DNA of 64,000 nt from a bacterium (GTDB taxonomy: Bacteria > CG2-30-53-67 > CG2-30-70-394). The position numbers and the translations under genes were made by a program. The notes beneath the pieces were generated by a model, which saw only the letters and a list, made by a program, of their open reading frames with translations, was not told the DNA's origin and made no database searches. Within the stretch, counting starts at the first letter, position 1; the number at the start of each line of letters is the position of its first letter. The DNA is taken from positions 4,043 through 68,042 of the forward strand of contig JAJRSX010000183.1 of assembly GCA_024278555.1 (NCBI GenBank), written 5' to 3'. Positions 10,749-63,187 of this stretch are shown in pieces.

Positions 10749-10867
10749 GCCGACGGGGGGGGCGCAGGAGGCATGCGTCACAGTGGCGAGGGAGGTCGTG
10801 GGCTGGAATGCGGGGCTCGCGCGAAGGCGCGAAGGGCGGTGGGGCCGATGGGTGGGGTGCCTCCGCT

Positions 10868-11036
10868 CTAGGAGTCTGTCGGACTTTGGCGATCGTCGCG
10901 AGGGGAAGCGGGCCCGAGTTCGGATTGTGACCCGTTCGAGGAGCATAGTGGGCCTATGCGACGAAGAACGGGGCGCGATCCGGGCCGAGATCCGCTTTCC
11001 CGCAGTAGATCGGGCCAAAATCCGACAGACTCCTGG
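10868..11036 (-). mobile_element. MITE-like repeat copy A (TIR AGGAGTCTGTCGGA), reverse orientation relative to copies B/C
   Basis: About 170 bp bounded by inverted repeats. The internal sequence is the reverse complement of the core shared with copies B and C (GATCTACTGCGGGAAAGCGGATCTCGGCCCGGATCGCGCCCCG). Confidence 0.7.
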
Positions 11037-11205
11037 GGCTGGGGATTGGGCTGGGGCTTGAAAGGGGGGGCCAGTTACAAGGGCGCGAAGAGGGGGAGAT
11101 CCTCCCCGTGATATGGGAGGGGTGGGGGGAGTAGGGTGGGGAGATTGGAGGTGGAGGCGGGGGCTGAGGGGCAGCGGATGGGGCAGGGCGGACAGGGGTG
11201 GTGAT

Positions 11206-13619
11206 ATGGGGTGCGAGAGCTTTGATGGATTGTTCCGGCGGGCCACTGGCTTCGAGGAGCCATTCGGCTATCAACAGCGACTTGCCTGCGATTACGGGGC
11301 GGACGATTTCCCGGAGCTGGTGGATGTTCCCACCGGGTTGGGCAAGACGGCGGCAGTGGTGTTGGCGTGGCTGTGGCGGCGCCGGTTTCATCCGGATCGC
11401 GCGGTGCGCAACGCGACTCCACGGCGCTTGGTCTATTGCCTCCCGATGCGGGTGTTAGTGGAGCAGACCCACGACAACGTTGTCGCGTGGCTGGACCGTC
11501 TCGGCCTTCACGGCGAAGCGGGAGAGGGCAAGGTCTCCGTTCATCTCCTCATGGGCGGCGAGGACGACCTCCGTTCGTGGGCGGACTACCCCGAGGAGGA
11601 GATGGTCCTCATCGGTACCCAGGACATGTTGCTCTCTCGGGCACTGATGCGCGGCTACGGTATGAGCCGCTACCAATGGCCAGTCCACTTTGCCCTCCTG
11701 CACAACGATGCCCTGTGGGTTCTGGATGAGGTGCAGCTCATGGGGCCGGGGCTGGCCACCGCCTGCCAGCTTGAAGGGTTGCGGCGACGTCATGCGACAG
11801 CGCGGCCGGCGGCGACTCTGTGGGTTTCCGCTACCTTGCACCGTGACTGGCTCAGCACGGTCGATCTGCGGCCTCATCTGGACGGCTTCTCCATCCACCG
11901 AGTGAGCGGCGAGGAGATTGGTCACGACGCCATCCGAGAACGGTGTGAGGCGACAAAGACGATCGCGGCGGCATCTGTGAGTGCCCCAGCGCAGGCGGCT
12001 ACACAGGCGGGTACACGCGCCTACGTTCAGGCCCTCGTCGAAGAAGTTGCCGCTCGACACAAGCCTGGCTCCACCACCCTGGTTGTGGTCAACACCGTGG
12101 GCCGAGCGCAGGCGGTGTACACCGCCCTCGGCAAGGCAGGTGTTACGGCGGACCGGTTGCTGGTCCACGGCCGATTTCGTCCGTCAGAGAGGCGGCGTGC
12201 AAACGAAGCTCTGCGTGAGGAGCCGGGCCACGACGGTCGCATCATCGTTGCCACCCAGGCAGTGGAAGCGGGGGTCGACCTCACCAGCCGCACCCTCTTC
12301 ACCGAGCTTGCGCCGTGGTCTTCCCTGGTTCAGCGGTTCGGTCGCTGCAATCGGTACGGAGAAGAGGCGGAGGCACACATCTATTGGATCGATCTCGATG
12401 AGACCAAGCTCGCCCCGCCGTATGAGGCCGAAGAGCTGGCGCGGGCGCGCGCGGTGGTGGAACAGCTTTCCAGTGCTAGCCCAGTGGACCTGCCCCCGGT
12501 CTCCGGCGACCGGCCCCTCTACCCGGTCCTGCGCGACAAGGACCTCCTCGACCTCTTCAATACCGACTCCGACCTGTCGGGCTTCGATGTCGATGTCTCC
12601 CCCTACATCCGCGACGCCCAGACCACCGACCTGCGTGTCTTCTGGCGCGACCTTTCCGCCGGCGTGGACGGCCAGCCGCGGCCGGAACGCGACGAGCTCT
12701 GCACCTGCCCGGTGGGGGAGGTGGCGGCATACCTCAAACGGATCGCCAAGGATGGCGGCCGTGTCTACCTCTGGGATGGGCTCGGCGAGCGGTGGGCTCC
12801 CCTGTCCGGGCGGCCCCGCCCCGGCGTGGTCCTGATGCTCGATGCCGCCCGTGGCGGTTACGACGAGGGGCTCGGTTTCGCCAGTGGAGCGAAGAGGCCG
12901 GTGGCTCCCGTGGTGTCGCCCGACGTTTCGGTTCCGGAGACTTACGGTGGAGACACACGTAGCCACCTCACTGAACCGATCCCTCTCACGGATCACATCG
13001 GCCACGTAGCAGCGGTGACAGCCCAACTTGGTCGGGTGGTCGGGGCCGATGGAGACACTGAAGCCGTGTGCCGGGCCGCTGCCTGGCACGACGTGGGCAA
13101 GGCCCACGAGGTGTTTCAGCAGACCCTGACCCGTTGCCCACGGATGACCGACCGCCCCGGCGGTCCGTGGGCCAAATCACCCTGTGGTGGTCGCCACGCC
13201 CGCCCCTACTTCCGCCACGAGCTCGCCTCGGCCCTTGCCTGGCTCGCCCACCATGGTGACGAACCAGAGGCCGACCTGGTCGCGTACCTCATCGCCGCCC
13301 ACCACGGGCGGGTGCGCATGGGGATTCGTGCCCTGCCCGGCGAGAAAGAGCCGCCTGGGCCCGGTCGCCGTTTTGCCCGCGGCATCTGGGAAGGTGACGA
13401 CCTGCCGGCGCTCGTGCTCAACGACGGCGAGAGACTGCCGGCCATCCGGCTTGACCTCCACCTGATGGAGCTAGGCACCGGGCCTCAGGGCCATTCATGG
13501 ACAGCTCGCACCCAGGGACTGCTGGCGCGCTTCGGTCCCTTCCATCTCGCCTGGCTAGAGAGCCTGGTGCGCGTCGCCGACTGGCGCGCCTCGCGCGTCG
13601 AGCAGGAGGAGGAGCTGTC

Positions 13620-13623
<4 letters not shown>
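11206..13623 (+). CDS. cas3: Cas3 helicase with C-terminal HD nuclease domain (type I-G/I-U architecture)
   Basis: DEAD/DEAH helicase motifs (VPTGLGKTA, VLDEVQLMG), a helicase C region, and C-terminal HD motifs (AAWHDVGKAHEVF, AAHHGRV). ATG at 11206, though the ORF is open from 11113. Confidence 0.85.
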
Positions 13624-16729
<3,106 letters not shown>

Positions 16730-16730
16730 G

Positions 16731-18257
16731 ATGGTCGCCATTGCCTTCCGCTTCCCTGGGGGGCGCTACCACGCCACCCCCTGGGGACGCCATGTGAACG
16801 AGGCGGCAGTGGCGTGGCCGCCGGAGCCGTGGCGCATCGTCCGCAGCCTCATCGCCATCTGGCACCGCAAGACCGACCACGACGTCTATTCCGAGGAGGC
16901 GCTGACCTCGCTGCTCGCGGCGCTGGCGCGGGGGGAGCCGGTCTACCGTCTCCCCGAAGCAACCCATGCCCACACTCGCCACTACATGCCTGTGCGCTCG
17001 GGTCGGCAGGACAAGAACACCTTGATCTTCGACGCCTTCGTTCGTTTGGCGCCTGAGGCCGAGTTGGTGGTGGCCTGGCCCTCTGTCGACCTCGACGCCA
17101 ACCAAACCACGCTCCTCGACGCCCTCCTCACACCCCTCGGTTATCTCGGGCGCGCCGAGAGCTGGGTGGAGGCTCGGCGGCTGGAGGTGTGGGAGGGAGA
17201 ACCTAACTGTGTCCCTGGAGAAGAATCTGTCGATCCGGAGACCGGCGAGATCCTCGGTGAACCGGTACTCCTCCATCTGCCACAGACTCCCGATGACTAT
17301 CACCAGTTTCGCGTGCGAATGCTGGCAGGGCTTGAAGACTGCGAGTTGAAGCCACGAGAGCGCCAACGCGTCGAGGCGACCCTCCCCGAGGCGTGGCTCG
17401 CGGCGGTCTCGCTGGATACCTCCGACCTCCAGGCTGCCGGTTGGAGCGCGCCTCCGGCCGCGCGGCTCGTCCACTACCTGCGTCCTGAGACGGCTCTCCA
17501 GCCCATGGCCTCTCCCCAACCAAAACCGTCTCGCCCGTCAGCCGCCCCCACCACCGCTCGCTTCGCCCTTTACGGCCGCCCCCTGCCGCCCATGGAAGAT
17601 GCGGTGAAGGTGGGTGAGTGGCTGCGATGGGGGATCATGGGTAAGGCAAAACGGCTGTTGGGAGAGAATCGCATTCCACCGGAACTTGCCGGCCACAACG
17701 GCGGTCGCCCCGCCGAGGGACACGGTCATGCCTTTTTTCTCCCCGAGGACGTGGACGGCGACGGCCGTATCGACCACGTCGCCATTCACGTCCCCGGTGG
17801 GCTGTCGCCAGACGGATGCCGAGTGGTGGCCGCGTTGCGCCGTTTGTGGACGCGGGAGGGGCACGAGTGGCAGATCATTCTCGAAGCCCTGGGTGATGGG
17901 CCAGCGCTGGCGACGGCCACGCCACTGTTCGGCGAGAATCAGACCTGGCTTTCCGTCACCCCCTACCTACATCCGTGGCACGTGAAGAGGCGGTTCACTG
18001 TGGCGGACCAACTCCTCCGGGAGTGCGGCGAGCGGGGTCTTCCCGAGCTGTCGACGGTTGAGGCGATCCCCACGGTGCAGGTCGGTTCCCGCTCTCGCCA
18101 CGCCGTCCACTTCCACCGCTTCCGCGCTAAGCGCGGTCTCACCCAGCCGGACACCCACGGCTCTTTCTGGCGCCTCACCTTCGCCGAGCCCATCACCGGC
18201 CCCCTCGCCCTCGGCTTCGCCTGCCACTTCGGCCTCGGTCTGTTTCGCCCCGAGTAG
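16731..18257 (+). CDS. csb2: Csb2 (Cas5-Cas6 fusion, type I-G)
   Basis: The N-terminus FRFPGGRYHATPWGRHVNEAAVAWPPEPWRIVRSL fits GSU0054-family Cas5/6. Confidence 0.8.
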   Translation: MVAIAFRFPGGRYHATPWGRHVNEAAVAWPPEPWRIVRSLIAIWHRKTDHDVYSEEALTSLLAALARGEPVYRLPEATHAHTRHYMPVRSGRQDKNTLIFDAFVRLAPEAELVVAWPSVDLDANQTTLLDALLTPLGYLGRAESWVEARRLEVWEGEPNCVPGEESVDPETGEILGEPVLLHLPQTPDDYHQFRVRMLAGLEDCELKPRERQRVEATLPEAWLAAVSLDTSDLQAAGWSAPPAARLVHYLRPETALQPMASPQPKPSRPSAAPTTARFALYGRPLPPMEDAVKVGEWLRWGIMGKAKRLLGENRIPPELAGHNGGRPAEGHGHAFFLPEDVDGDGRIDHVAIHVPGGLSPDGCRVVAALRRLWTREGHEWQIILEALGDGPALATATPLFGENQTWLSVTPYLHPWHVKRRFTVADQLLRECGERGLPELSTVEAIPTVQVGSRSRHAVHFHRFRAKRGLTQPDTHGSFWRLTFAEPITGPLALGFACHFGLGLFRPE

Positions 18258-18391
18258 CCTCATCTTCTCGGTAACCTCCATGCCCTCCCTCGCTTCGTGG
18301 TGAAAAGACCGTGTAAATCCTTCACGACTACGAGGGTCGGTCCATCCGCCTGACGGACGAGCGCCTCGCCCATGTCTTGGAGCATCCGGAG

Positions 18392-18625
18392 ATGGTCGGG
18401 ATGGAGGCGGCGACCGAGGAGACCTTGGTGAAGCCGGAAGCGGTGGTCGGGTCGTTCAGCGACGAGACAGCCCATCTGTACTACCGTTTCTATGTGGGTA
18501 CCCGGGTCGGCGATAAGTACGTTTGTGTGGTGGTCAAGGTCGTTTCGGACGACGCCTTTGTGCTGACCGCGTATCTCACGGACAAGACGAAGAAGGGAAC
18601 GCAGATATGGCCAAACGAAACGTGA
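18392..18625 (+). CDS. DUF4258-like putative toxin; the conserved domain extends upstream of the first ATG into a frame closed by TAA at 18314-16 with no canonical start, so it is possibly decayed
   Basis: ...HLYYRFYVGTRVGDKYVCVVVKVVSDDAFVLTAYLT matches the DUF4258 C-terminal pattern. The upstream in-frame IRLTDERLAHVLEHPEM also fits the family but lacks ATG/GTG (only TTG at 18377). Confidence 0.4.
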   Translation: MVGMEAATEETLVKPEAVVGSFSDETAHLYYRFYVGTRVGDKYVCVVVKVVSDDAFVLTAYLTDKTKKGTQIWPNET

Positions 18626-18807
18626 AGATCTGGTACGACGCCGAAGGGGATTACCTGGAGGTGATCTACGATCAGCGGTCGGGCTATTTCCGTGAAACGG
18701 CTGCCGACCAGGTGACGGAGAAGGTGGATGAGGAGGGGGAGATTCTCGGGTTCTCCGTGTTACGGGTGAGCTCGTTGACGCGGAGCCCCCTGGAGGTGGC
18801 GCTCTGA
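18607..18807 (+). CDS. DUF2283 family protein (putative antitoxin partner)
   Basis: MAKRNVKIWYDAEGDYLEVIY...GEILGFSVL fits the DUF2283 signature. It overlaps the preceding gene's stop. Confidence 0.55.
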   Translation: MAKRNVKIWYDAEGDYLEVIYDQRSGYFRETAADQVTEKVDEEGEILGFSVLRVSSLTRSPLEVAL

Positions 18808-18832
18808 CGTCTCGCCGACGTGGGGCCGTAGG

Positions 18833-19033
18833 ATGATTGTGAAAATCACCTACGACAAAGAGGCGGACGCCCTCTACATTCGGCTGCTCGATGGGCATCA
18901 CGAGTGCCGGAATCTCGGAAGATCGAGTGTCCGATGGCCAGGTAGCTTGGGTCCCGGGTGTGTCCGTCGCGCGAGTCGTTCAGTCGCGGCCAGGTCCGTG
19001 CCGATCCGTAGAGAACTTTGTTTCTTTCGGTGA
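18833..19033 (+). pseudogene. second DUF2283 copy, truncated or frameshifted after ~21 aa
   Basis: MIVKITYDKEADALYIRLLDG matches the DUF2283 consensus almost perfectly, after which the frame degenerates into low-complexity Arg/Ser sequence. Confidence 0.35.
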
Positions 19034-19042
19034 GGTGCGGAA

Positions 19043-20788
19043 ATGGAAGCTGCCGACTCTGATGGCCGTGCGGGACGGGCGGGTGGGCCCGCGTCTCCCC
19101 CGCAGATCCCGGTGCGGATGCTCAACGAGTTCACCTACTGCCCGCGGTTGGGCTACCTCATGTGGGTCGACTCCGAGTGGGCGGATAGCCACCACACGGT
19201 GGAGGGACGGTGGCGCCACAAGCGGGTAGACAAGGCCCCGACCGAGGGGTTGCCCGAGGCAGACGGTACGCGCGATGAGCCGTTGCACGTGCGCTCGGTC
19301 AACCTGGGGAGTGAGCGGCTCGGCCTGGTGGCGAAGCTGGACGTGGTCGAGGCGGATGGCGAGACGGCCACCCCGGTGGACTACAAGCGAGGCAAGCGTC
19401 CCAAGGTCGAGGGTGGCGCGTATGACCCGGAGCGGGTCCAGCTCTGCGCCCAGGGGCTGTTGCTCCGCGAGCACGGTTATCGTTCGGAGGAGGGGGTCCT
19501 CTACTACGTCGGCTCGAAGGATCGGGTCACCGTCCCCTTCGATGATGACCTGGTCGCCTTGACCATGCGTCAGATCGAGCTCTTTGGGTTGGCGGCAGCG
19601 GCACCTCAGGCGCCGCCGCCGCTGGCCGACTCTCCCAAGTGTCCGTACTGCTCCCTGGTGGGAATTTGCCTGCCTGATGAGACCCGGATGCTGGCGCAAG
19701 AGACGACGGCGGATGCCGGCGACAACGGCAACGGCTCGAAGCCGGCACGCCATCGACCGCGACGTCTCCTGCCGGCGAGTGTCGATGCCCTGCCCCTCTA
19801 CGTCACCACCCAGGGGGCATACGTGGGAAAGAAACAGGAGGTACTGGTGATCAAGGAAAAGGGCGCCGTGGTGGCGGATGCGCGTATTCGCCACACCTCA
19901 CAGGTTGCCCTCTTCGGGAATGCTCAGGTCTCCACTCAGGCGCTGCGGGAGCTGTGCCGGAGGGGCATCCCGATCACCTACTTCTCCTCCGGCGGCTACT
20001 TCTACGGACTCAGCCATGGCATGAGCCACAAGAACGTGGGGTTGCGTATCGCCCAGTACGACACCGCGCGCAGGCCATCCCGTTGTCTCGACCTTGCCCG
20101 CCGTTTCGTGGCCGGAAAGATTGCCAACAGTCGCACGCTCCTGCGTCGCAACCATCGGAGCAAGCCGGAGGCAGAGCTCCGAGCACTCGCCCAATTGTTG
20201 CAGGAGGCGGAGGGCGCTGCTTCACTTCAGACACTCCTCGGTGTCGAGGGAATGGCCGCCCGAACCTATTTCGGTCGCTTCGGCGATCTACTCCGTCCCC
20301 CGGCCGGTGGTGATCCGGGGTTCGATTTCGAGCACCGCAACCGCCGTCCCCCGAGGGATCCGGTCAACGCCATGCTCTCCTTCGGCTACGCCCTCCTCAC
20401 GCGTGATTGGACCGTGACCCTGCTTTCCGTCGGTTTCGACCCCTATCTCGGTTTCTACCACCAGCCGCGCTACGGCCGTCCCGCCCTGGCGTTGGACATG
20501 ATGGAGGAGTTCCGCTCGTTGATCGTCGACTCTGTAGTGATATCAGCCATCAATAACGGTGAGCTCGGGGAGCCCGACTTCGTTCACGCCACCGGCGCGG
20601 TTGCCATGAGCACTCGTGGTCGTAAGGCCTTTCTTGCTGCGTACGAGAGGCGTCTTGCCCAGGAGATTTCCCACCCCGTGTTTGGCTACCGTATCAGCTA
20701 CAGGCGTATCTTTGAGGTACAAGCGAGACTACTCGCCCGAGTCATTCAAGGGGAAATTCCGGAGCTCCCCGCCTTTCGTCCGAGGTGA
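19043..20788 (+). CDS. cas1: Cas4-Cas1 fusion protein (probable true start ATG 19118)
   Basis: The N-terminal Cas4 part has MLNEFTYCPRLGY and the Fe-S Cys cluster CPYCSLVGICLPDE. The C-terminal Cas1 part has LPLYVTTQGAYVGKKQEVLVIKEKG. Confidence 0.85.
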   Translation: MEAADSDGRAGRAGGPASPPQIPVRMLNEFTYCPRLGYLMWVDSEWADSHHTVEGRWRHKRVDKAPTEGLPEADGTRDEPLHVRSVNLGSERLGLVAKLDVVEADGETATPVDYKRGKRPKVEGGAYDPERVQLCAQGLLLREHGYRSEEGVLYYVGSKDRVTVPFDDDLVALTMRQIELFGLAAAAPQAPPPLADSPKCPYCSLVGICLPDETRMLAQETTADAGDNGNGSKPARHRPRRLLPASVDALPLYVTTQGAYVGKKQEVLVIKEKGAVVADARIRHTSQVALFGNAQVSTQALRELCRRGIPITYFSSGGYFYGLSHGMSHKNVGLRIAQYDTARRPSRCLDLARRFVAGKIANSRTLLRRNHRSKPEAELRALAQLLQEAEGAASLQTLLGVEGMAARTYFGRFGDLLRPPAGGDPGFDFEHRNRRPPRDPVNAMLSFGYALLTRDWTVTLLSVGFDPYLGFYHQPRYGRPALALDMMEEFRSLIVDSVVISAINNGELGEPDFVHATGAVAMSTRGRKAFLAAYERRLAQEISHPVFGYRISYRRIFEVQARLLARVIQGEIPELPAFRPR

Positions 20789-20790
20789 CC

Positions 20791-21081
20791 ATGAAACGCG
20801 ACTATCTTGTCACCTACGACATCTGCGACGACAGGCGTCTGCGCCGCACATTCGAGGCCGTAAAGGGTTTCGGCCTCCACCTGCAGTACTCGGTTTTTCT
20901 CTGCTCACTCACACAGCGGCAACACATGGAGCTGCTTGCAATCCTGGATGAGATCATCCACCATCGTGAAGATCAAGTGATGGTGATCGACCTTGGTCAA
21001 TCCGGCTCGCGATTCAATCCCCGAATTGCCACACTCGGCAAACCCGGCCCGGATGCCACCGACAAGCCCATCATCATTTGA
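20791..21081 (+). CDS. cas2: Cas2
   Basis: A ~96-aa protein with KRDYLVTYDICDDRRLRRTFEAVKGFGLHLQYSVFLC typical of Cas2, lying directly upstream of the leader/array. Confidence 0.8.
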   Translation: MKRDYLVTYDICDDRRLRRTFEAVKGFGLHLQYSVFLCSLTQRQHMELLAILDEIIHHREDQVMVIDLGQSGSRFNPRIATLGKPGPDATDKPIII

Positions 21082-21264
21082 CAGCCCCTTCGAGCGGTCA
21101 TGTGACGGGCCGGTCATGGCCACCTCTCGAAGCAGTAAGTTCTTTGATAATAAGGTGTTTTTGTAAGATTCAGGTCCTATCCCCCTGTGATGTTCATGCG
21201 TCTGCGTGACCGATCGATCCGATGCATGCAAGTTGCTGAGTCGAAAAAGAAAATCGAGCATGCT
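21082..21264 (+). promoter_or_regulatory. CRISPR leader (AT-rich relative to genome)
   Basis: A ~180-bp AT-enriched segment between the cas2 stop and the first repeat. The repeat's 3' end ATTGAAGC (type I 8-nt handle) indicates + strand transcription away from cas2. Confidence 0.5.
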
Positions 21265-22241
21265 ATTTCCGCAGCGTTAACGCTGCGGCCCCATTGAAGC
21301 TTGCGGATGATCTTGAACGCATGGCGACGCGGCAGATTTCCGCAGCGTTAACGCTGCGGCCCCATTGAAGCATTGCGACCTCCTCTTCAGAGCGCTTCTT
21401 TTTAGCGATTTCCGCAGCGTTAACGCTGCGGCCCCATTGAAGCAGCCCTCAGCGGGAGGGAGATTCGCAAGTTTTCCGGGATTTCCGCAGCGTTAACGCT
21501 GCGGCCCCATTGAAGCCAGGCGGGATTTGGTAGAAACGAATGAGGTCGTCACATTTCCGCAGCGTTAACGCTGCGGCCCCATTGAAGCGTGGCGTGGGTC
21601 ACGGCGGCGGCGGTGCTCTGCCTCGTTACCGCAGCGTTAACGCTGCGGCCCCATTGAAGCCGAGGAGCGGCACAAAGACGGGCGCACGTTCTATTTTATT
21701 TCCGCAGCGTTAACGCTGCGGCCCCATTGAAGCCCGACCGCGACAGTCTCAGCACGCCCCGCGCGGCCATATTTCCGCAGCGTTAACGCTGCGGCCCCAT
21801 TGAAGCTACGCAGTAGTCATAAGAGATCGACATCCCTAGCGTAATTTCCGCAGCGTTAACGCTGCGGCCCCATTGAAGCCCACGTCCTTCGACATGGACT
21901 TCGTCGTTGAGTTGATTTCCGCAGCGTTAACGCTGCGGCCCCATTGAAGCTCTAGGGCTGCTTTCGACGAGGTTCTGAAACTCCTCGCATTTCCGCAGCG
22001 TTAACGCTGCGGCCCCATTGAAGCGATCCATTGATTCCCACCCATGAGATTGCTCCATCTCATTTCCGCAGCGTTAACGCTGCGGCCCCATTGAAGCTCC
22101 AGCGGCAAGGTGGGGGACGGAGTCTACGGGTATGATTTCCGCAGCGTTAACGCTGCGGCCCCATTGAAGCACCCACTTCACTTCCCCCGCCACGGTTTTT
22201 TTGGTATTTCCGCAGCGTTAACGCTGCGGCCCCATTGAAGC
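21265..22241 (+). CRISPR. CRISPR array, 14 repeats / 13 spacers
   Basis: The 36-bp repeat ATTTCCGCAGCGTTAACGCTGCGGCCCCATTGAAGC has a palindromic core CCGCAGCG-TTAA-CGCTGCGG. Spacers are 35-38 bp. Repeat 6 (21625-21660) is a variant (GTTACC... instead of ATTTCC...). Confidence 0.95.
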
Positions 22242-22289
22242 GTAATGGGTTCGATGGCGTCGGCTATGTCGTCCGTTAAGGAGAGCGCC

Positions 22290-23786: not shown

Positions 23787-24362
23787 CTACCCGGCGGTCG
23801 GCGGCTCGGGGCGTTGCGCGGCGATGACCTCGATCGCCCGTGGGGTGGTGGGGCAGACAAAGGCGCAGGCGCCGCAGCCGGTGCAGCGGGTGGCCTCCAC
23901 CGTGGGCAGGCCGAGGTTGCGCAGGTCGATGGCGGACTCGGGGCAGCGCTCTCGGCACGACAGGCACATGGCGAAGCCGGCCTGGTTGAGGCAGTGGTCG
24001 GCGATGACCTCCGCGACCCCAGGGTCGGCCACGCCGCCCTCCACTCCGCGCTGCAGGGCGCCGCTGGGACAGGCGTCGGCGCAGGCGCGGCACCGCTCGC
24101 AGTAGCCGTCCACGAAGGCCATCCACGGGGTTCTGTCCACGGCCTCGCCGCGGCCGGTGACCGGCGCGAGGACGTTGTTCGGGCAGGCCTCGATACAGGC
24201 GTGGCACCGCTCACAGGTGTCCAGGAAGGCGGACTCGGGGAGGGCGCCGGGAGGGCGTACCGGTGGCGGCAGGGGGGGCGTGTCGGGCTGCTCGGTGAGC
24301 CGTTGCCGCAGCCGCGAGAGGCCGCCGAGGAGGAGGTCGCGCCGGGTCCAGGTGGCAGCCAT
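23787..24362 (-). CDS. NapG/MauM-like periplasmic ferredoxin-type protein (4x [4Fe-4S] Cys motifs, TAT-like N-terminus)
   Basis: Contains CERCHACIEACP, CERCRACADACP, CLSCRERCP and CTGCGACAFVCP, with TWTRRDLLLGG at the N-terminus. Confidence 0.7.
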   Translation of the reverse strand: MAATWTRRDLLLGGLSRLRQRLTEQPDTPPLPPPVRPPGALPESAFLDTCERCHACIEACPNNVLAPVTGRGEAVDRTPWMAFVDGYCERCRACADACPSGALQRGVEGGVADPGVAEVIADHCLNQAGFAMCLSCRERCPESAIDLRNLGLPTVEATRCTGCGACAFVCPTTPRAIEVIAAQRPEPPTAG

Positions 24363-24469
24363 GGTCAGCTTTCGTTGGTGTGCCGCGCGGCGCGCCGATG
24401 CCCCTCATTCCCCTCGTGCGCTTCGTGGTCTTCGTGGTTTTGGCCTCTCCCGATGTGGGAAGCCCGGCG

Positions 24470-25582
24470 TTACTCCTTCCCCTCGAAGAGCTCCTTCACC
24501 TTCTGGAAGAAGCCCTGGCCGCGCGGGTGGGTCTCTTCGCCGCTGATCCGGGCGAGCTCTTCGAGGAGCTCGCGCTGGCGGGGGGTGAGCTTGGTGGGGG
24601 TCTCGACGACGACCCGCACCAGCTCGTCGCCGACGCCGTGGCCGTGGACGTTGGGGATCCCCTTGTGGCGCAGGCGAAAGACGGCGTCGGTCTGGGTGCC
24701 GGCGGGGATGTTGAGACTCTCCTCACCTTTGAGGGTGGGGACGCGGATCTCGGCGCCGAGGGCCGCCTGGCTGATGGAGATGGGGACCTCGCACAGGAGG
24801 TCGTCGCCGGAGCGGGAGAAGAGGGGGTGCTCCTTGACCACGATGATGACGTAGAGGTCGCCGCGGCCGCCGCCGTGGATGCCGCCCTCGCCCTCACCGC
24901 CGAGCCGGAGGCGGGTACCGGTCTCCACCCCCGGCGGCACCTTCACGGTGATCTGGCGGCTCTGCCGCACACGGCCGCTCCCCTTGCACCCGGGGCACGG
25001 GTCGGTGACCACCTGCCCCTCGCCGTTGCAGGCGGAGCAGGGGCGGGCGAGGGAGAAGAAGCCCTGCTGGTAGCGCACCTGGCCGCTGCCGCCGCAGGTG
25101 GGGCAGGGGCGGGCGCCGGCACCGCTCGTGCTGCGTCGGCCGCCGCACTCGCCGCACGTCTCCATGCGCGGTACCTCGACCGGGATCTCGGCACCGAAGG
25201 CGGCCTGTTCGAAGTCGATCTCGATGTCGAGCCGGAGGTCGGCGCCGCGCCTGGGCGCCTGGGCACGGCGCCGGCCCCCGCCGAAGAAGTCGCCGAAGAT
25301 GTCCTCGAAGATGTCCGAGAAGCCGCCCCCGGCAAAGCCGCCCCCACCGCCGCCGTTGGCGCCGAGACCGGCGTGGCCGAACTGGTCGTAGCGGGCCCGT
25401 TTGTCCGGGTCGGAGAGGACCTCGTACGCTTCGCTCAGCTCCTTGAACTTGTGTTCCGCCTGCTCGTCGCCCGGGTTCTTGTCCGGGTGAAAGCGCATCG
25501 CCCCCTTGCGATAGGCGCGTTTGATCTCCGTCGGCGAGGCGTCGCGGGAGACGCCGAGGGTCTCGTAGTAGTCGGTGGGCAT
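24470..25582 (-). CDS. dnaJ: chaperone DnaJ
   Basis: J-domain with HPD ([13 protein letters not shown]), a G/F-rich region, and four CxxCxGxG zinc-finger repeats. Confidence 0.9.
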
Positions 25583-25802
25583 GCGCTCGCTACGCTCGCG
25601 GGGATGGGGGGCGGGGGATGGGGGGTGAGGGGGTGGATGGCCGCTGCGCGGCCACCGATGGCGTGTGGTGGATGGCTCTCATCGTCGTCTCACGTGGCCC
25701 GAAGGGCCAACCATTCCCCCATCCCTCACCCCCCATCCCCGGGACAGGATCGCATCCAGGGAATGGAGAGCCGCCCCGGGGGGCGGTCAACCCCGGGCCG
25801 CT

Positions 25803-38220: not shown

Positions 38221-38442
38221 GGCAAATGCTGTCGATCGGGGGCGGGCGGTGACGGGGGGATCAACCGCACTCACCTGAAGCTCTACGTGGTGCGCAGCGG
38301 CGCCTTCGAGCTGGACAACAACGCCCAGGCCGCGGTGAAGCTGAAGTTCACCGGCCATCTGTGATGCACCGCCTGCGGCAGCTCTTGCGCTGGAGCCGCA
38401 CCCGGTGACAGTAGCGGGGGCTACTTGAGCCCGGCGTCGCCG

Positions 38443-38610
38443 GGAGCCTATCGAACCCATGCACGATCTACTGCGGGAAAGCGGATCTCGGCCCGGATCG
38501 CGCCCCGTTCTTCGTTGCATAGGCCCGCGTAGCGCTCGAACGGGTCGCAATCCGGACTCGAGCCAACTTCCCCTCGCGACGATCGCATAAGTCCGACAGA
38601 CTCCTAGATC
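38443..38610 (+). mobile_element. MITE-like repeat copy B (left TIR degenerate)
   Basis: Shares the core ...GCACGATCTACTGCGGGAAAGCGGATCTCGGCCCGGATCGCGCCCCGTTCTTCGTTGCATAGGCC...GATCGCATAAGTCCGACAGACTCCTAGATC with copies A and C. Confidence 0.7.
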
Positions 38611-46393: not shown

Positions 46394-46582
46394 TAGGAGC
46401 CTGTCGGACTTATGCACGATCTACTGCGGAAAAGCCGATCTCGGCCCGGATCGCGCCCCGCTCTTCGTTGCATCGAATCGCGGGCAGGAGCCCGCTCCTA
46501 CCGCTCCTCGAACGGGTCGCAATCCGGACTCGAGTCCGCTTTCCGTCGTGACGATCGCATAAGTCCGACAGACTCCTAGATC
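46394..46582 (+). mobile_element. MITE-like repeat copy C (best preserved, 22-bp TIRs CTAGGAG[C/T]CTGTCGGACTTATGC)
   Basis: The left end is CTAGGAGCCTGTCGGACTTATGCACGATCTACTGCGG... The right end ...CGCATAAGTCCGACAGACTCCTAGATC is its inverted complement. Confidence 0.75.
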
Positions 46583-46590
46583 GGCAACGT

Positions 46591-48106: not shown

Positions 48107-51100
48107 CTACTTCACCGGGCAGAGGGGACCACCGTTACGGCTGTCGCCATCGACGACCTCGAAGTCACCGCGCACCAGTCCCGGGCCGATCGGCTGGGAA
48201 CAGCTCGTGTGGATCTTGGCGTGGAACTTTCCCTCCACGTAGATCTTGATCTCGGTGCCGAGGGTGCCCTTCTTGTCGTTCCCCACCAGGTTGATCAGGT
48301 CGCCCGGGACAACCGTGTCCTGGAAGACGCGGCTCCCCTTCTTCTGCTGCACCTCGACAAACGCCGCGGTGGCGCCGTTGTAGCGCAGGGTCAGGTTGGT
48401 CACCCTGCCGTCGCAGCCGCAGGCGGCCGGCGGAGTGGACGGCGGCTCAGGCATGGCGACATCTTCGGAGTCGCTGTCGCCGTCGCCGTTCGAATCCTCG
48501 CCGGAATCACTGTCCGAATCGGGGCAACCGGAGAGGGCCGCCTCGGAGTCGCTGTCGCCGTCGCCGTTGGTGTCGATCCCGGAGTCGCTGTCCGAGTCCC
48601 CCGCGCTGCTCGTACCGCAGGGCGAGTCCACCGGGCAGAGGAGCGAGAACTCACGGCTCGCACCGTCGACCACCTCGAAGTCACCACGGATCAGCCCCGG
48701 CCCGATGGGCTGCGAGCAGCTCGTGTGGATCTTCGTCTGCAGCTCACCGTTGACGTAGACCTTGATCTCCGTCCCCAGAGTGCCCTTCTTGTCGGTGCCG
48801 GTGAAGGAGAAGCTCATATTCGGATCGACATCCCCCTCGAAGACGACCGTGTGGTCCTTTTTCTCCTCCACGCGGATCGCCGCGGTGGCGCTACCGAGGT
48901 AGCGCAGGGTGAGGGAGGTCACCTTGCCCTCACAGCCACAGGGCTCTTCGGGCGGAGTCTGCTGGCAGGTGACCGTGGCCGTGTCCGTCGCCTCACACAC
49001 GGCACCGGTGGCCAAAGAGCCGGTCGCCGTTACCGTGTTGGTGGTGTCGGCGCAGACGGAGGCTACCTTCGAGACCGTCTGGCTCTCGCCGGTCGCCAGC
49101 ACCGGGATGGTGGCGACAACGCCCAGCTTGTCATCGACCACCTGCACGTTCGCCACCGGCGGCCCATTATTGGTCACCACGTAGGTGTAGGTGACGTTGT
49201 CGCCGGTGCAGGCGGGGGCCGGCGGAGGTGTCCCGCCGGTCGCTTCCGAGTCGGAGTCACCATCGCCATTGGTGTCGATGCCGGAGTCGCTGTCCGAGTC
49301 GCCGGGGAGTGCCTCGGAGTCGCTGTCGCCGTCACCGTTGCGGTCGATGCCGGAGTCGCTGTCCGAATCGCCCGGGAGGGCTTCCGAGTCGCTATCGCCG
49401 TCACCGTCGCGGTCGATGCCGGAGTCGCTGTCGCTGTCGGCCGTGCTGCCGGAGACATCCATAGCGCACAGCTTGCCGCCCTCCTTGCTCGATCCGTCGA
49501 CCACTTCGAAATCGCCACTTACCAGCCCCGGACCGATGGGCTGCGAGCAGCTCGTGTGGATCTTCGTGTGCAGCGCGCCGTTGACGTAGATCTGGATCTC
49601 CGTGCCGAGGGTCCAGTGCTTGTCGGTGCCGATGAAGGAGAAGATCTCTCCCGGTGCCACCGTACCGCTGAAGACCACGTCACCATCCTTTTTCTGCTGG
49701 ACCGCGACAAAGGCCGGGTCGCTGCCGTTGTAGCGCAGGCTCAGCTCGGTCACCTTGCCCTCGCAGCCACACTCGGCCGGCGGCGGGGGGGGAGTCGTGC
49801 AGTCAACGACCTCGGGAGAGGCGGTCTTCACCACCGTCAGATCACACGTCTCGATGGTACAGGTCGCCGAGCAGCCGTCACCGTTGATCGTGTTGCCGTC
49901 GTCGCACTCCTCGCCCACGTCGAGGATCCCGTCGCCGCAGGTGGGGTTCATGCAGTTGGCCTGGCAGCCGTCGCCATCGATATTGTTGCCGTCGTCGCAC
50001 TGCTCGGGCGGAGTGAGGATGCCGTCGCCGCAGAACTCGTTGCCGCAGTTGGCGTTACAACCGTCGCCGTTGACGTTGTTGCCGTCATCACACTGCTCAC
50101 CCGGGTCGAGGATTCCGTCACCACAGGCGGGAAGCCTGCAATCGGCCTGGCAGCCGTCACCGCTGATGTTGTTGCCGTCGTCGCACTGCTCGCCCGTGTC
50201 GAGGATGCCGTCACCGCAGAAGGGCAGGGAGCAATCGGCCTGGCAGCCGTCGCCGCTGATGTTGTTGCCGTCGTCGCATTGCTCGCCGGCATCGACGATG
50301 CCGTCGCCGCAGACGGGCAGGGCGCAGTTGGCCTGGCAGCCATCGCCGTTGATGTTGTTGCCGTCATCGCACTGCTCGCCGGCATCGGGGATCCCATCGC
50401 CGCAGCGCGGGTTCATGCAGTCGGCCTGGCAGCCATCGCCGTTGATGTTGTTGCCGTCGTCACACTGCTCACCGGCATCGAGGATCCCATCGCCGCAGCG
50501 CGGGTTCATGCAATTGGCCTGGCAGCCGTCACCGTCGATGTTGTTGCCGTCGTCGCATTGCTCGGGCGGAGTGAGGATGCCGTCGCCGCAGAACTCGTTA
50601 CCGCAGTTGGCGTTACAGCCGTCGCCACTGATGTTGTTGCCGTCATCGCACTGCTCGCCGGCATCGAGGATCCCATCACCGCAGATGGGATACATGCAAT
50701 TGGCCTGGCAGCCGTCACCGTCGATGTTGTTGCCGTCATCGCACTGCTCACCCGGGTCGAGATAACCATCGCCACAACGGGCGACCGTACAGTCGCTGTG
50801 ACAGCCATCGGTCTCGACCAAGTTGCCGTCATCGCACTCCTCGCCGGGATCGACGATCCCGTCACCGCAGACCGGCACGGTGCAGTCATTTCGGCAACCG
50901 TCCGTATTGTCCATATTGCCGTCATCGCACTGCTCGCCGGCGTCGACGATCCCGTCGCCGCAGAAGGGCAAGGTGCAGTCGTTACGGCAGGCGTCAAAAT
51001 TGTCCTGATTTCCGTCGTCGCACTCCTCGCCTGGATCGACGATGCCGTTACCGCAGACAGGAGTAATGATAGGATAAACGATGACCGGATCATTGCTCGA

Positions 51101-51961: not shown

Positions 51962-52056
51962 GGAGCGGTTCGTTTTCTGGTTGATCCTCACGGTGGATTC
52001 CTTTCTGAAAGGGTACGGCTGGAAGGTGAACGAGAGAAGAGCCGGTACTTGGTTCT

Positions 52057-52182
52057 GGGAGTCTGTCGGACTCGGCCCGGAAGGGCTTCGTAACTCATTG
52101 AAACCATTGCGTTCGTGTTTCAGAATCCAATGATGCACTTTCAATGAAAACAAACCCACATGGAGAAAATCCGACAGATGCT
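52057..52182 (+). mobile_element. MITE-like element copy E (same TIRs GGAGTCTGTCGGAC...ATCCGACAGATGCTC, different low-GC internal sequence)
   Basis: The terminal inverted repeats match the family, but the internal ~100 bp is unrelated and AT-richer. It lies ~100 bp upstream of the giant protein start. Confidence 0.5.
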
Positions 52183-52899
52183 CTCTGAAGTTGAACTCTC
52201 AATGTTCAATGCATGCAAGTTTGATGCCGTGTGCCGCGAGCCCCCCTCTGTCGAGGGCGTTGTGGCGGAGTGAAACCCTGAAAAATTATATAGTTGCAGG
52301 CAGCGCCTTTGGTGCCGTCCGGGTCCATTGAGGGGGGCGCTGTCGCTAATAGATACAGACAGCAGGAGTCGGGTCGCGAGTAAGTTGTAAACGCTGTGGA
52401 CACTTTACCGCCGTGCTATTGCATGGATGATGCTGCATTTCTCGTGTTTACCGCTAGTTATGGGCGCAAAGCAGTTGTTTATTTCTTTGACAGTTCTCCT
52501 CCCGGAGTTTTCTGGATGAGACGGGCGCGGCACATACGGCACACCGAGAAGAGGGCGCCGGAGTCGGTCGAGTCGTGGTGGCGATTGGCGACGATACAAG
52601 AATTGTTGCCGCCGGCCGCCGAGGGTGGTTGCCGAGGGTGGTTGTCGTTCAACCATTGCGAGGCTCAAGATTTGTCACGCCCGGTTTCCCGGAGGTACGC
52701 GATAGTGGAGGATGTCCGGCCCATGGAGGTTTCGCAGATGAGCCACGTGCGGGGGCAGAGGGGGGCTTCGATCCCATCAATGGGCGCGGGGGCTGGCCGT
52801 GTGGCGACCGACGTGTTTTCCGGAGTCGCCGTGCTGCCGCGTCGATCGGCGGAGCCGGAGAGCCGGCGATGGGGGAATGCAATCGCTCCCCAGCTCTTG

Positions 52900-53030
52900 T
52901 CAGGGGGCTTTCGGACCTGGCCCCGATCTACTGCGAAAAGAGGGATTACGGACCCGGTCGCCATCCCGCCCTACGGCGCATGGGCCTCCTGCGTTCCGAG
53001 AAGGGGAGGCAACCCGGACTACGAACCCGT
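52900..53030 (+). repeat. partial/divergent MITE-family copy D
   Basis: ...TTTCGGACCTGGCCCCGATCTACTGCGAAAAGAGGGATTACGGACCCGGTCGCCATCCCGCC... shares the core GATCTACTGCG(G/A)AAAG with the other copies. Confidence 0.45.
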
Positions 53031-53382
53031 TTCACGTCGTGCCGATCGTCAGACCACAGCAGCCTCTTGGGCGAGCCACAGGTTACGGCGCCCAGGGACC
53101 CGGATGTGCCGAGCTGCCGTTCGGAAGGAGATACTGTCGTGCTCGAACGAGGAAAAAGTTCGTGAGGTAGCCGCTACACGGGTGAATGCTCTGGCCGATC
53201 CCCTCTAGATCTGAGATGGCTGCCAGCCGCTCACCATCAACACCCGCCTCATCGCCTATGAGGAGAAGTAGATCGTTCGTGTGTGGATCTTCAGCCGTAG
53301 AGCCATATAACCCAATCCTGCGCGTCCATGAAGCTATCACTATACAGACGATCAGCTGAGTGATAGTGAAGGAGAACAAGGT

Positions 53383-55032: not shown

Positions 55033-55066
55033 GTAATGACGGTGTCGCGCGTGGCGAGAGAATGTA

Positions 55067-57635: not shown

Positions 57636-57707
57636 GGCGGCTTTCCGTGGCGTGCGAGTCAGACCGCGACACTGAAAGCCTTATCGGCGGATTTCTTCGA
57701 CAGAGCA

Positions 57708-57746
57708 AAAACAAAAAAGGAGGGGCGACCTTCGGGCCGCCCCTCC
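57708..57746 (-). terminator. rho-independent terminator downstream of PEP-CTERM gene
   Basis: The minus strand reads GGAGGGGCGGCC-cgaa-GGTCGCCCCTCC followed by TTTTTTGTTTTT. Confidence 0.6.
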
Positions 57747-57771
57747 TCGGGAACACACGCTGTCGGGGTGA

Positions 57772-62774: not shown

Positions 62775-63187
62775 TTGTGCCGGTCGGCGAAAAGCGCCCC
62801 CCGGCGCACCGGGCCCTCTTCGTATCTCTTCGTGTCCCTTCGTGGACAACCCAACCGGCCGAAGCGCCAGGGCGACTGGCGGGCGGGTTCGAGGTCGAAG
62901 CTCGCTCCTCCGCCATCCCCCCTCTACTTTTCTACCCTCTACTCCCTACCCCCGTTCCGCCCTTCCGTGTCGTTCCGTGGATTCCGTGGCGACGTCGGTG
63001 CGCCGCGCTGCGCTTGGCGCACCCTACTGAGGTTTCTGTTCCCCTTCGTGACTTTCGTGCTCTTCGTGGTTTTGTCCCCTTTCAGGTGACTCGCCAAGGG
63101 GCCACGCCCCCACGACGCCGGTGGTCTCGACCTTCACCCTGTGGGTGAACGGCCCCAGGATTACCGTTGAGCCCCGTCTCCCTCGGC

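What the first reader, a model, noticed from the sequence alone, without database searches (positions are those of the whole stretch)
24412..24446. TTCGTG direct-repeat arrays (9-10 bp periodicity) sharing an exact 14-mer at two distant loci
Three sites carry three phased TTCGTG repeats. Site 1 is CCTCGTGCG-CTTCGTGGT-CTTCGTGGTTTTGGCC (24412-24446), downstream of dnaJ and upstream of the NapG-like ferredoxin gene. Site 2 is CCTTCGTGAC-TTTCGTGCT-CTTCGTGGTTTTGTCC (63044-63078). Site 3 is CTTCGTATCT-CTTCGTGTCC-CTTCGTGGAC (62815-62847). Sites 2 and 3 both lie in the 410-bp convergent gap 62775-63187. Sites 1 and 2 share the exact 14-mer TCTTCGTGGTTTTG, unexpected by chance in 64 kb. Helical-turn phasing of a hexamer suggests a binding array for a dimeric or oligomerising regulator (OmpR/PhoB or NtrC-like), or a conserved small RNA module.
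Basis: seen in the sequence. Interest (0 to 1): 0.5.

Follow-up and report, generated by a model that had tools for sequence, protein, structure and literature searches.

The report
Widespread three-unit TTCGTG intergenic repeat
The TTCGTG triplets are real, but they are not a private switch for the neighbouring genes: they are local copies of a strictly built three-unit repeat that turns up between genes in many bacterial phyla and in viral contigs, and whose job is still unknown.

Summary
The window holds four same-strand arrays, not three.

Each array has exactly three units at a 9-10 nt period and ends in GTGG. This is far beyond chance: 3 exact hexamer triplets against 0.015 in shuffles.

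The arrays are not a lineage-specific operator. The same architecture recurs in more than 120 genomes of many phyla and more than 120 viral contigs. It has a YTYNGTG core, variable 3-4 nt spacers, exactly three units in about 90% of arrays, and a G after the last unit in about 91-92%. About 36% of arrays have an inverted partner.

No gene family recurs next to the arrays. The one syntenic relative lacks site 1. The closest relative carries sibling arrays with other words behind the same left module.

There is no Rfam match, no significant fold, and no promoter or terminator consensus.

Best reading: a dispersed REP-like intergenic repeat whose three-unit array is a recognition site for an oligomeric protein. 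The nearest known architecture is the MraZ operator (three GTG(G/T) boxes, 10-nt period), but membership fails on spacing, flanks, copy number and location. The function is not established.

The parts
24413..24437 (+). Array 1: CTCGTG-cgc-TTCGTG-gtc-TTCGTG followed by G. Period 9, 9. On the sense (minus) strand of dnaJ and the ferredoxin gene it reads CCACGAAGACCACGAAGCGCACGAG. It starts 32 nt after the dnaJ stop and ends 50 nt before the ferredoxin ATG.
24438..24443 (+). T-rich tail (TTTTGG) after the terminal GTGG. The tail TTTTG is shared with array 2. It corresponds to the weak T-rich stretch (to about +17) seen after arrays of the class.
24382..24391 (.). GC palindrome GCCGCGCGGC in the left module of the site-1 copy.
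24351..24464 (+). Extent of the site-1 copy of the composite repeat (left GC-rich module, array, tail), as matched by sequence model R1. The 5' end overlaps the ferredoxin start codon, so that part of the match may be coincidental.
   Evidence: 82.9 bits
62819..62845 (+). Array 3: TTCGTA-tctc-TTCGTG-tccc-TTCGTG followed by G. Period 10, 10. It lies 45 nt after the HEPN stop.
62905..62962 (+). C/T-rich, G-poor stretch with CTAC(C/T)C-type short repeats between arrays 3 and 4. The plus strand of the whole gap is pyrimidine-rich.
62963..62989 (+).
62997..63027 (+). Left module of the site-2 copy. It holds the hairpin GGTGCGCC...GGCGCACC and the 18-mer GCGCTTGGCGCACCCTAC. That 18-mer recurs in front of a CTTCATG x3 array in relative L121.
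63045..63069 (+). Array 2: TTCGTG-act-TTCGTG-ctc-TTCGTG followed by G. Period 9, 9.
63070..63074 (+). T-rich tail (TTTTG) after array 2.
62976..63095 (+). Extent of the site-2 copy of the composite repeat, as matched by model R1.
   Evidence: 88 bits

Best explanation
SHOWN. The four arrays are local copies of a dispersed, modular intergenic repeat. They are not an operator evolved in place for dnaJ, the ferredoxin gene or the HEPN module.

The defining module has these features:
- exactly three direct units of 9-10 nt;
- each unit has a conserved core (C/A/T)T(T/C)NGTG, here CTTCGTG or TTCCGTG, and 2-4 variable spacer bases;
- the last unit always ends in GTGG and is followed by a short T-rich tail.

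The same module occurs in many bacterial phyla and in viral contigs, as single arrays or as outward-facing inverted pairs (5'-CCACNRA x3 ... TYNGTG x3 G-3'). It lies mostly in short spacers close to gene ends. Spacers show genome-specific 'dialects', and sibling arrays use related words (TCTGTG, TCCGTG, TTCGCG, TCTGCG, TTCATG).

INFERRED. The array is a recognition site for three subunits of an oligomeric nucleic-acid-binding protein, one subunit per GTG(K) box. The subunits would bind head to tail, with the GTGG unit marking the polar end. Such a protein could be the factor that spreads or maintains the repeat, as a RAYT transposase does for REPs. Alternatively it could be a host factor that uses the repeat at gene boundaries as a roadblock or insulator.

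In this window the arrays therefore most likely have no gene-specific regulatory meaning. At most they have a generic boundary effect between dnaJ and the ferredoxin gene and in the convergent gap.
For: Architecture beyond the search pattern:
- G follows the last unit in 137/151 arrays by a first count and in 139/151 once units are extended. It follows internal units in only 7-12%.
- There are exactly three units in 134/151 genome arrays and 155/170 viral arrays. A control word (GTGCTT) gives a broad 3-42 distribution of mostly perfect tandem repeats (103 of 127 with identical spacers), 103 of 127 lying in long open frames, though that frame measure did not separate them from TTCGTG arrays.
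- Spacers vary in about 80-90% of arrays.
- The spacer order 4 then 3 is common and 3 then 4 is rare: 27 against 2-3.
- Other periods (7-8 or 11-12 nt) give fewer hits, mostly perfect repeats without partners.

Inverted partners:
- An outward-facing partner occurs in 205/574 arrays, against 19 inward-facing.
- The arms match at only 58% of spacer positions.
- G.U-compatible mismatches do not favour the sense strand: 30 against 33. The hairpin itself therefore does not look selected.

Dispersed-repeat nature:
- Window sites 1 and 2 and the element at L121:3665-3790 align over about 100 nt.
- L121 carries the same left module in front of arrays with other words.
- Arrays within one locus share spacers at 60%, against 36% between loci, and occasionally share flanks.
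- TCTGTG and TCCGTG arrays co-occur with TTCGTG arrays in the same viral contigs and are absent from control loci.

Not a local operator:
- The array is absent from the syntenic spacer of L124.
- No neighbouring protein family recurs.

Precedent for three head-to-tail GTG(G/T) boxes bound by one oligomer:
- the MraZ operator as described in PMC12957436 and PMC5282649;
- the same layout read directly in E. coli, in 66 Bacillales loci and in 4 Desulfuromonadales loci.
Against: - No binding protein is identified, and none can be with these tools.
- In viral contigs the arrays show a 2.2:1 preference for CACNRA on the sense strand (118 against 53). Their GTGG end hugs stop codons at 1-19 nt, and their other end lies 0-40 nt from the next start. 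Both points fit an RNA-level role better than a DNA site.
- A 9-nt and a 10-nt period within one class is awkward for a rigid oligomer.
- No target-site duplication and no transposase partner were found, so mobility is inferred only from the dispersed, non-syntenic distribution.
- The literature and Rfam checks were limited. The class may have been described under a name I could not search for.
Confidence: 0.45

Rival explanations
1. RNA-level element. The arrays act in transcripts, in 3' UTRs or intercistronic spacers. They would be an unstructured platform for an RNA-binding protein or the ribosome, or, when paired, a long imperfect hairpin that stabilises or terminates transcripts as transcribed REPs do.
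For: - In viral contigs 118 of 171 arrays in co-directional spacers have CACNRA on the sense strand.
- The GTGG end lies 1-19 nt from the upstream stop codon in 36 of 55 such cases.
- The next start codon often follows within 0-40 nt, leaving no room for a promoter.
- Window site 1 has this layout: dnaJ stop, array, ferredoxin start.
- The arrays are predicted to be unstructured.
Against: - Bacterial loci show no clear orientation bias: 22 against 14 single arrays overall, and 8 against 5 at low GC.
- Window sites 2-4 sit in a convergent gap.
- The wobble test shows no sense-strand bias, and the arms of pairs are only partly complementary.
- There is no U-tract terminator and no Rfam family.
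Confidence: 0.22
2. Purely selfish or neutral repeat. This would be a REP/MITE-like family that expands in some genomes and has no host function. The conserved core would be only the recognition site of its mobilising enzyme, or a by-product of a repeat-generating mechanism.
For: - Presence is patchy among close relatives. The window and L121 are array-rich, while L124 and L125 have none.
- Copies are non-syntenic and share left modules.
- Spacers show genome-specific dialects.
- Singlets occur alongside inverted doublets, as with REP and REPIN.
- The arrays lie after stop codons, as REPs do.
Against: - No target-site duplication was found.
- No associated transposase appeared among the neighbouring genes.
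- The copy number of exactly three and the same core across distant phyla and viral contigs argue for a constraint stronger than drift.
- Flanks are mostly unrelated within a locus: only 4-6% of pairs reach 60% identity.
Confidence: 0.2
3. Genuine MraZ sites. The arrays would be extra chromosomal and phage-borne binding sites, a regulon or decoys, for the cell-division regulator MraZ. MraZ recognises three GTG(G/T) boxes about 10 bp apart.
For: - The architecture is the same: direct orientation, three boxes, a GTG core followed by G or T, and a last box of GTGG, as in M. genitalium AAAGTGT x3 + AAAGTGG.
- Window arrays 3 and 4 have the canonical 6-nt separation, at least in part.
- Specific contacts are reported only to GTG(T/G).
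Against: - Sixty-six of 66 Bacillales operators, E. coli and three of the four Desulfuromonadales operators have 6-7 nt separation, and all have A/G-rich flanks. None has 5-nt separation, and none has the YTYN flank.
- About half or more of the class, and window sites 1 and 2, have 5-nt separation.
- No array among about 5 Mb of array-bearing loci lies next to mraZ.
- Internal boxes are followed by C or A in about a third of units.
- Sibling words such as TTCATG and TCTGCG lack GTG.
Confidence: 0.06
4. The arrays are an operator for a lineage-specific response regulator (OmpR/PhoB- or NtrC-like) controlling the ferredoxin gene and a second target.
For: - The repeats are direct and near helical phasing.
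- Site 1 ends 50 nt upstream of the ferredoxin ATG.
Against: - Site 1 is absent in the syntenic relative L124.
- Sites 2-4 have no downstream gene.
- The unit number is odd and the period is 9 nt.
- The identical array occurs in many phyla and in viral contigs beside unrelated genes.
Confidence: 0.04

Closest known systems
MraZ operator of the dcw (cell division) cluster
   Same: Three direct boxes with a GTG core followed by G or T, at about a 10-nt period, read head to tail. The final box is GTGG in M. genitalium. The operator is bound cooperatively by successive subunits of one oligomer. I read the layout directly in E. coli, Bacillales and Desulfuromonadales.
   Different: - The operator is a single site per genome, 10-40 nt upstream of mraZ.
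- Box separation is 6 nt, occasionally 7, with a single 4-nt spacing among the operators read; it is never 5.
- Flanks are A/G-rich rather than YTYN.
- It does not form inverted pairs and is not known in phages.
- In the window, sites 1 and 2 have 5-nt separation and none of the arrays is near mraZ.
REP / BIME / REPIN elements (repetitive extragenic palindromes and their RAYT transposases)
   Same: These are short, multi-copy, strictly extragenic elements. They often lie just after stop codons. They occur as singlets and as inverted doublets with one preferred relative orientation. They have a species-specific consensus around a conserved recognition core, and their presence is patchy among relatives.
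   Different: - Each REP is itself an imperfect palindrome with a GTAG or CGTC head. Here each unit array is three direct repeats with no internal palindrome and no significant fold.
- No RAYT was seen.
- The core is shared across phyla, which REP sequences are not.
Cyanobacterial STRR (short tandemly repeated repetitive) sequences
   Same: Dispersed intergenic arrays made of short words repeated in tandem, with several word families per genome. This comparison rests on my own knowledge of Mazel et al. 1990 and was not checked here.
   Different: STRRs are perfect heptamer tandems with variable copy number and are confined to cyanobacteria. Here the period is 9-10 nt, the spacers vary and the unit count is fixed at three.
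OmpR/PhoB-type direct-repeat operators (Pho boxes, OmpR F-sites)
   Same: Direct repeats of a 6-8 bp word near helical phasing, read by head-to-tail winged-helix domains.
   Different: - The period is 10-11 bp and half-sites come in even numbers.
- They are promoter-proximal and conserved with the regulon, and the words are lineage-specific.
- None of this holds for the arrays here.

Membership tests
MraZ operator | Three direct GTG(G/T) boxes | tested here: inconclusive
   Site 4 has GTGT, GTGG, GTGG (3 of 3). Site 3 has GTAT, GTGT, GTGG (2 of 3). Site 1 has GTGC, GTGG, GTGG (2 of 3). Site 2 has GTGA, GTGC, GTGG (1 of 3). The definition comes from PMC12957436.
MraZ operator | Boxes separated by six nucleotides (10-nt period) | tested here: not met
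   Sites 1 and 2 have 5 and 5. Site 4 has 6 and 5. Only site 3 has 6 and 6. Reference operators: 56 of 66 Bacillales loci have 6 and 6, the rest have 6 or 7, and none has 5. E. coli and three of the four Desulfuromonadales operators have 6 and 6; the fourth (G. metallireducens) has 6 and 4.
MraZ operator | Located immediately upstream of mraZ / the dcw cluster | tested here: not met
   The neighbours are dnaJ and a ferredoxin gene, and a HEPN gene and an unassigned gene. tblastn with MraZ finds nothing in the window or in about 5 Mb of array loci.
MraZ operator | Bound by MraZ | not testable with these tools
   Needs EMSA or ChIP.
OmpR/PhoB- or NtrC-type operator of a local regulon | Conserved in front of orthologous target genes | tested here: not met
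   The syntenic hrcA-grpE-dnaK-dnaJ-ferredoxin locus L124 has an 82-nt spacer without any array.
OmpR/PhoB- or NtrC-type operator of a local regulon | Lies upstream of a promoter or gene start | tested here: not met
   Sites 2-4 are in a convergent gap. No sigma-70-like promoter was found at either locus. Site 1 is upstream of the ferredoxin gene, but within a dnaJ-ferredoxin co-directional spacer.
OmpR/PhoB- or NtrC-type operator of a local regulon | Lineage-restricted motif with 10-11 bp period and paired half-sites | tested here: not met
   The same array is found in many phyla and in viral contigs. There are three units in about 90% of arrays, and the period is 9 in most.
REP/BIME/REPIN | Short, extragenic, multi-copy, dispersed | tested here: met
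   Four copies lie in two spacers of 64 kb. There are multiple copies per 8-15 kb in many loci.
REP/BIME/REPIN | Each unit is an imperfect palindrome (stem-loop) | tested here: not met
   The units are direct repeats. The spacers fold no better than shuffles.
REP/BIME/REPIN | Inverted doublets in one preferred orientation | tested here: inconclusive
   The class meets this, with 205 outward-facing pairs against 19 inward-facing among 574 arrays. The window does not, because all four arrays are on the same strand.
REP/BIME/REPIN | Cognate RAYT (Y1 HUH) transposase in the genome | not tested
   None appeared among neighbours of arrays. Whole genomes were not available.
Described structured RNA (Rfam) | Match to a covariance model | tested here: not met
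   There were 0 hits in the window at gathering score, 0 hits at E<=1 in 62700-63250, and 0 hits in 15 array-rich loci.
Intrinsic terminator | GC-rich hairpin followed by a T run | tested here: not met
   The scans found none at either locus. After GTGG there are only about 2 T, then an A-rich and a weakly T-rich stretch.

The most novel reading that the evidence does not exclude
The arrays belong to an undescribed cis-element class found across bacterial phyla and also carried on viral contigs. It consists of exactly three YTYNGTG units at a 9-10 nt period, ending in GTGG. It would be read by a conserved but unidentified oligomeric factor, perhaps a MraZ/AbrB-type 'cradle' protein or an OB-fold RNA binder. 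That factor would mark gene boundaries, and phages would copy the signal to plug into the same host machinery.
Probability: 0.3. Interest if true: 0.8.

Novelty: new variant of a known kind. Interest (0 to 1): 0.6.

Why it matters
If the class is as general as the scans suggest, it is a strictly built signal shared by Verrucomicrobiota, Acidobacteriota, Planctomycetota, Chloroflexota, Bacteroidota, Desulfobacterota, methanotrophs, heliobacteria and viral contigs. I could find no Rfam family or paper for it.

A fixed count of three units, a polar end (GTGG) and a cross-phylum core imply a conserved reader protein.

Two practical consequences follow:
- such arrays should not be annotated as gene-specific operators;
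- they can mislead motif-discovery and regulon-inference pipelines.

For this window the consequence is modest. The arrays say little about the regulation of dnaJ, the ferredoxin gene or the HEPN module.

Tried and rejected
1. Rfam. The whole window, 15 array-rich loci and an E<=1 scan of the gap gave nothing.
2. tRNA/tmRNA scan: none.
3. Literature text searches for TTCGTG, CTTCGTG, CCACGAA and descriptive terms returned only irrelevant hits.
4. Exact look-up of the window's DnaJ found nothing on record, so the source genome could not be named. The nearest named homologue of the ferredoxin is a partial Nitrospirae MAG protein at 64% identity.
5. Association with a neighbouring gene family. 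All-against-all BLAST of flanking ORFs gave a largest cluster of 7 of 226, and 6 loci of about 240. A Pfam scan of 107 small neighbours gave PDDEXK_3/GxxExxY in only 3. These 3 are interesting cassettes but not a general link.
6. Target-site duplications around inverted pairs: none.
7. Selected RNA hairpin: the arms are only partly complementary and show no sense-strand wobble bias.
8. Sigma-70 promoter or intrinsic terminator: none. There is no fixed-distance -10-like signal downstream of arrays.
9. Replication-strand polarity (a Chi/KOPS-like signal). The window's GC skew simply mirrors gene orientation, so it could not be tested. The orientation consistency within viral contigs (83% against 71% for random) is confounded by gene direction.
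10. BLAST of a phage array block against cultured phage genomes gave no meaningful hits.
11. The MraZ route. The E. coli query returned only Enterobacteriaceae. The single metagenome scan returned only Bacillales-like loci. These were useful as reference operators, but no mraZ upstream region from an array-rich phylum was obtained.
12. Ideas considered from memory and dropped for lack of fit: DnaA boxes, CsrA GGA sites (these fit only the ACAGGAT and CACGGAA sibling words), Rho rut sites, ECF or sigma-54 promoters, lambda-type arm sites and Xis sites, Mu/Tn7-type transposon ends, T-loop or UUCG mimicry, and consensus pause sites.

Full report
**1. The observation**

The three sites exist exactly as described.
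- Site 1 (24413-24437) lies between the stop of dnaJ (24470..25582) and the start of a NapG/NapF-like 4Fe-4S ferredoxin gene (23787..24362). Both genes are on the minus strand.
- Sites 2 (63045-63069) and 3 (62819-62845) lie in the gap between a MNT/HEPN pair ending at 62774 (plus strand) and an unassigned gene ending at 63188 (minus strand).
- All four arrays are on the plus strand.

Chance is excluded.
- TTCGTG-N3-TTCGTG with up to 1 mismatch gives 4 matches against 0.26 expected.
- The 14-mer with up to 2 mismatches gives 4 matches against 0.22 expected.
- Exact hexamer triplets at a 9-10 nt period occur at 3 loci against 0.015 in 200 dinucleotide shuffles.

**2. The arrays are not lineage-specific**

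The loci come from:
- Verrucomicrobiota, Acidobacteriota, Planctomycetota, Chloroflexota and Bacteroidota;
- Desulfobacterota, Methylococcales and heliobacteria;
- Hydrogenedentota, Lentisphaerota and others.

By my rough estimate that pattern could give tens of chance hits in 596 Gb, so the raw count proves little. The features that were not part of the query do.
- The base after the last unit is G in 137/151 arrays. After internal units it is mostly T or C.
- The arrays have exactly three units in 134/151 cases, even when a fourth unit with one mismatch is allowed.
- The spacers vary while the hexamer is fixed.
- The spacer order 4 then 3 is common, and 3 then 4 is rare.
- A weak TTAAA and T-rich tail follows to about +17.

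The same holds in viral contigs.
- There are at least 120 contigs, 170 arrays by the unit count (169 by the separate count), and 155/170 have three units.
- Other periods give fewer contigs (61 and 40). These are mostly perfect tandem repeats without partners.
- A control word of the same composition (GTGCTT) also saturates the scan. Its arrays are a different thing: spacers are identical in 103/127, copy numbers run from 3 to 42, only 1/127 has a partner, and there is no preferred following base. They look like coding minisatellites.
- Sibling arrays with TCTGTG and TCCGTG co-occur with TTCGTG arrays in the same viral contigs and are absent from the control loci.
- De novo detection gives the grammar (C/A/T)T(T/C)N-G-(T/C)-G.

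**3. Anatomy of the class**
- Of 574 arrays, 205 have an inverted partner upstream, giving 5'-C-CACNRA x2-3 ... 3-100 nt ... TYNGTG x3-G-3'. Only 19 have the opposite arrangement.
- The arms agree at only 58% of spacer positions, and 4 of 52 pairs match at every spacer position.
- Palindromy extends 2-5 nt beyond GTGG, and there is no target-site duplication.
- G.U-compatible mismatches do not favour the sense strand, 30 against 33. A selected RNA hairpin is therefore not supported.
- The GTGG end lies close to a gene boundary. It is 1-19 nt from the stop of a convergent gene, or 10-60 nt from the start of a co-directional gene. The other end is further away.
- In viral contigs the arrays sit mostly in short spacers of co-directional genes, with CACNRA on the sense strand (118 against 53). 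The next start codon often follows within 0-40 nt. Bacterial loci show no clear bias.
- No protein family recurs next to the arrays. Three GxxExxY (PDDEXK_3) mini-genes flanked by arrays are a curiosity.
- Arrays within one locus share spacers at 60%, against 36% between loci, and occasionally share flanks. Each genome has its own dialect.

**4. Relatives of this window**

The source genome is not in the look-up collection. The ferredoxin has relatives at 87, 77 and 67% identity.
- L124 (77%) keeps the hrcA-grpE-dnaK-dnaJ-ferredoxin-CBS-deaminase order of the window. Its 82-nt dnaJ-ferredoxin spacer has no array.
- L125 (67%) has none either.
- L121 (87%) is rearranged, with toxin-antitoxin modules inserted. 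It is full of sibling arrays: CTTCATG x3 followed by G, ACAGGAT x3, ATCTGCG x3 followed by G, TCTCTGCG, and CGCGAAG.
- The CTTCATG array in L121 is preceded by the same 18-mer (GCGCTTGGCRYACCCTAY) that precedes window site 2.
- A sequence model of window sites 1 and 2 plus this element scores 80-88 bits on all three. It also finds the left module in front of a TCTCTGCG array.
- Two L121 copies share an 85-nt left part.

So arrays with different words are homologous copies of one dispersed repeat family. That family is present in some close relatives and absent from others.

**5. What the arrays are not**
- There is no Rfam family.
- There is no tRNA-like gene.
- Folding is no better than shuffles: z = -0.71 and -0.32 for the gap, and +1.57 for the dnaJ-ferredoxin spacer.
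- There is no sigma-70-type promoter and no intrinsic terminator.

**6. Closest known architecture**

PMC5282649 gives the Mollicutes MraZ site as (AAAGTGK-N3)x3. [quoted passage not shown] It also gives the M. genitalium site as AAAGTGT x3 + AAAGTGG, and reports that successive MraZ subunits contact GTG(T/G) through K13, R15 and R86.

I read the same layout directly in three groups:
- E. coli (agTGGGAaattgTGGGGcaaagTGGGAat);
- 66 of 66 Bacillales mraZ loci;
- four Desulfuromonadales loci.

The arrays here share the direct orientation, the count of three, the GTG core, the following K, and the terminal GTGG. They differ in several ways:
- the 5' flank is pyrimidine-rich (YTYN) rather than A/G-rich;
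- the separation is 5 nt in about half or more of the class, and in window sites 1 and 2;
- there are many copies per genome;
- they occur in viral contigs and form inverted pairs;
- they are not near mraZ, and tblastn found no MraZ in about 5 Mb of array loci.

Membership in the MraZ operator family therefore fails. The comparison does show that a head-to-tail oligomer reading three GTG(K) boxes is an established way for such an array to work.

**7. Conclusion**

Shown:
- the arrays are real and non-random;
- they are copies of a widespread, strictly built, dispersed intergenic repeat;
- they are not conserved with the neighbouring genes.

Inferred (confidence about 0.45):
- the three-unit module is a recognition array for an oligomeric nucleic-acid-binding protein;
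- the elements behave like REP-type repeats rather than gene-specific operators.

An RNA-level role (about 0.22) and a purely selfish repeat (about 0.2) remain live. The genuine-MraZ model (about 0.06) and the local response-regulator model (about 0.04) are unlikely.

I found no prior description, but my literature access was limited to text searches.

Noticed in passing
window 11113-22264: A complete CRISPR-Cas locus. It holds Cas3 (helicase + HD, 11113-13623), a GSU0053-family protein (15560-16729), a Cas4-Cas1 fusion (19043-20788) and Cas2 (20785-21081). These are followed by 14 repeats of ATTTCCGCAGCGTTAACGCTGCGGCCCCATTGAAGC with spacers of about 36 nt (21265-22241). The gene set looks like subtype I-G (formerly I-U).
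   Followed up: partly
window 10863-11036 (-), 38440-38610 (+), 46395-46584 (+), partial copy 52901-52961: A second, unrelated dispersed repeat of about 170 nt, 87-92% identical between copies (GGAGCCTATCGAACCCATGCACGATCTACTGCGG...). It has no Rfam match at gathering score. It could be a MITE or a small-RNA family.
   Followed up: no
window 25600-25740 (dnaK-dnaJ spacer): G-rich heptamer runs (GGGGGTG x5) are followed about 70 nt later by C-rich heptamers (TCCCCCA x4). Together they could form a long hairpin between dnaK and dnaJ.
   Followed up: no
window 48107-52159 (-): A 1351-aa ORF built largely of about twelve 93-nt (31-aa) tandem repeats plus 69-nt repeats. Its translation was not examined.
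   Followed up: no
window 52160-57770: A 5.6-kb stretch with lower G+C (0.57-0.59 against 0.65) and strong positive GC skew. My GC3-based gene call found no gene there. It may be foreign DNA or genes with atypical codon usage.
   Followed up: no
L121 2160-2250 and 3620-3700: In the closest relative the arrays are the 3' part of a larger repeat. Its left part is about 85 nt long (…GGATCGCGGGCA.G.GCCCGCTCCTACCTGG.TCCCCCTGCCGGG.GGCAACCCGAGCCGGGAAGACC…). The motif CCCGCTCCTACC recurs a third time at about L121:5775-5790.
   Followed up: partly
L103 317-745; L060 1050-1690; L096 2780-3410: Small GxxExxY (PDDEXK_3) genes are bracketed by arrays. In L103 the array even supplies the start codon and the first residues (MDTNPHEQ). 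These look like cassettes, but they account for only 3 of 107 small neighbouring ORFs.
   Followed up: partly
L100 5400-5650; L181; L517 4630-5090: Some loci carry higher-order structures. These are alternating arrays of two word types in a tandem of about 94 nt (L100), or runs of several different three-unit arrays on one strand (L181, L517). The window's gap 62815-63069 looks like a small version of this.
   Followed up: no
L121 3468-3495; L027, L032: ACAGGAT x3 sibling arrays match the CsrA/CsrB-type repeat CAGGA(U/A/C)G. The rest of the family lacks GGA, so this is probably coincidence.
   Followed up: no
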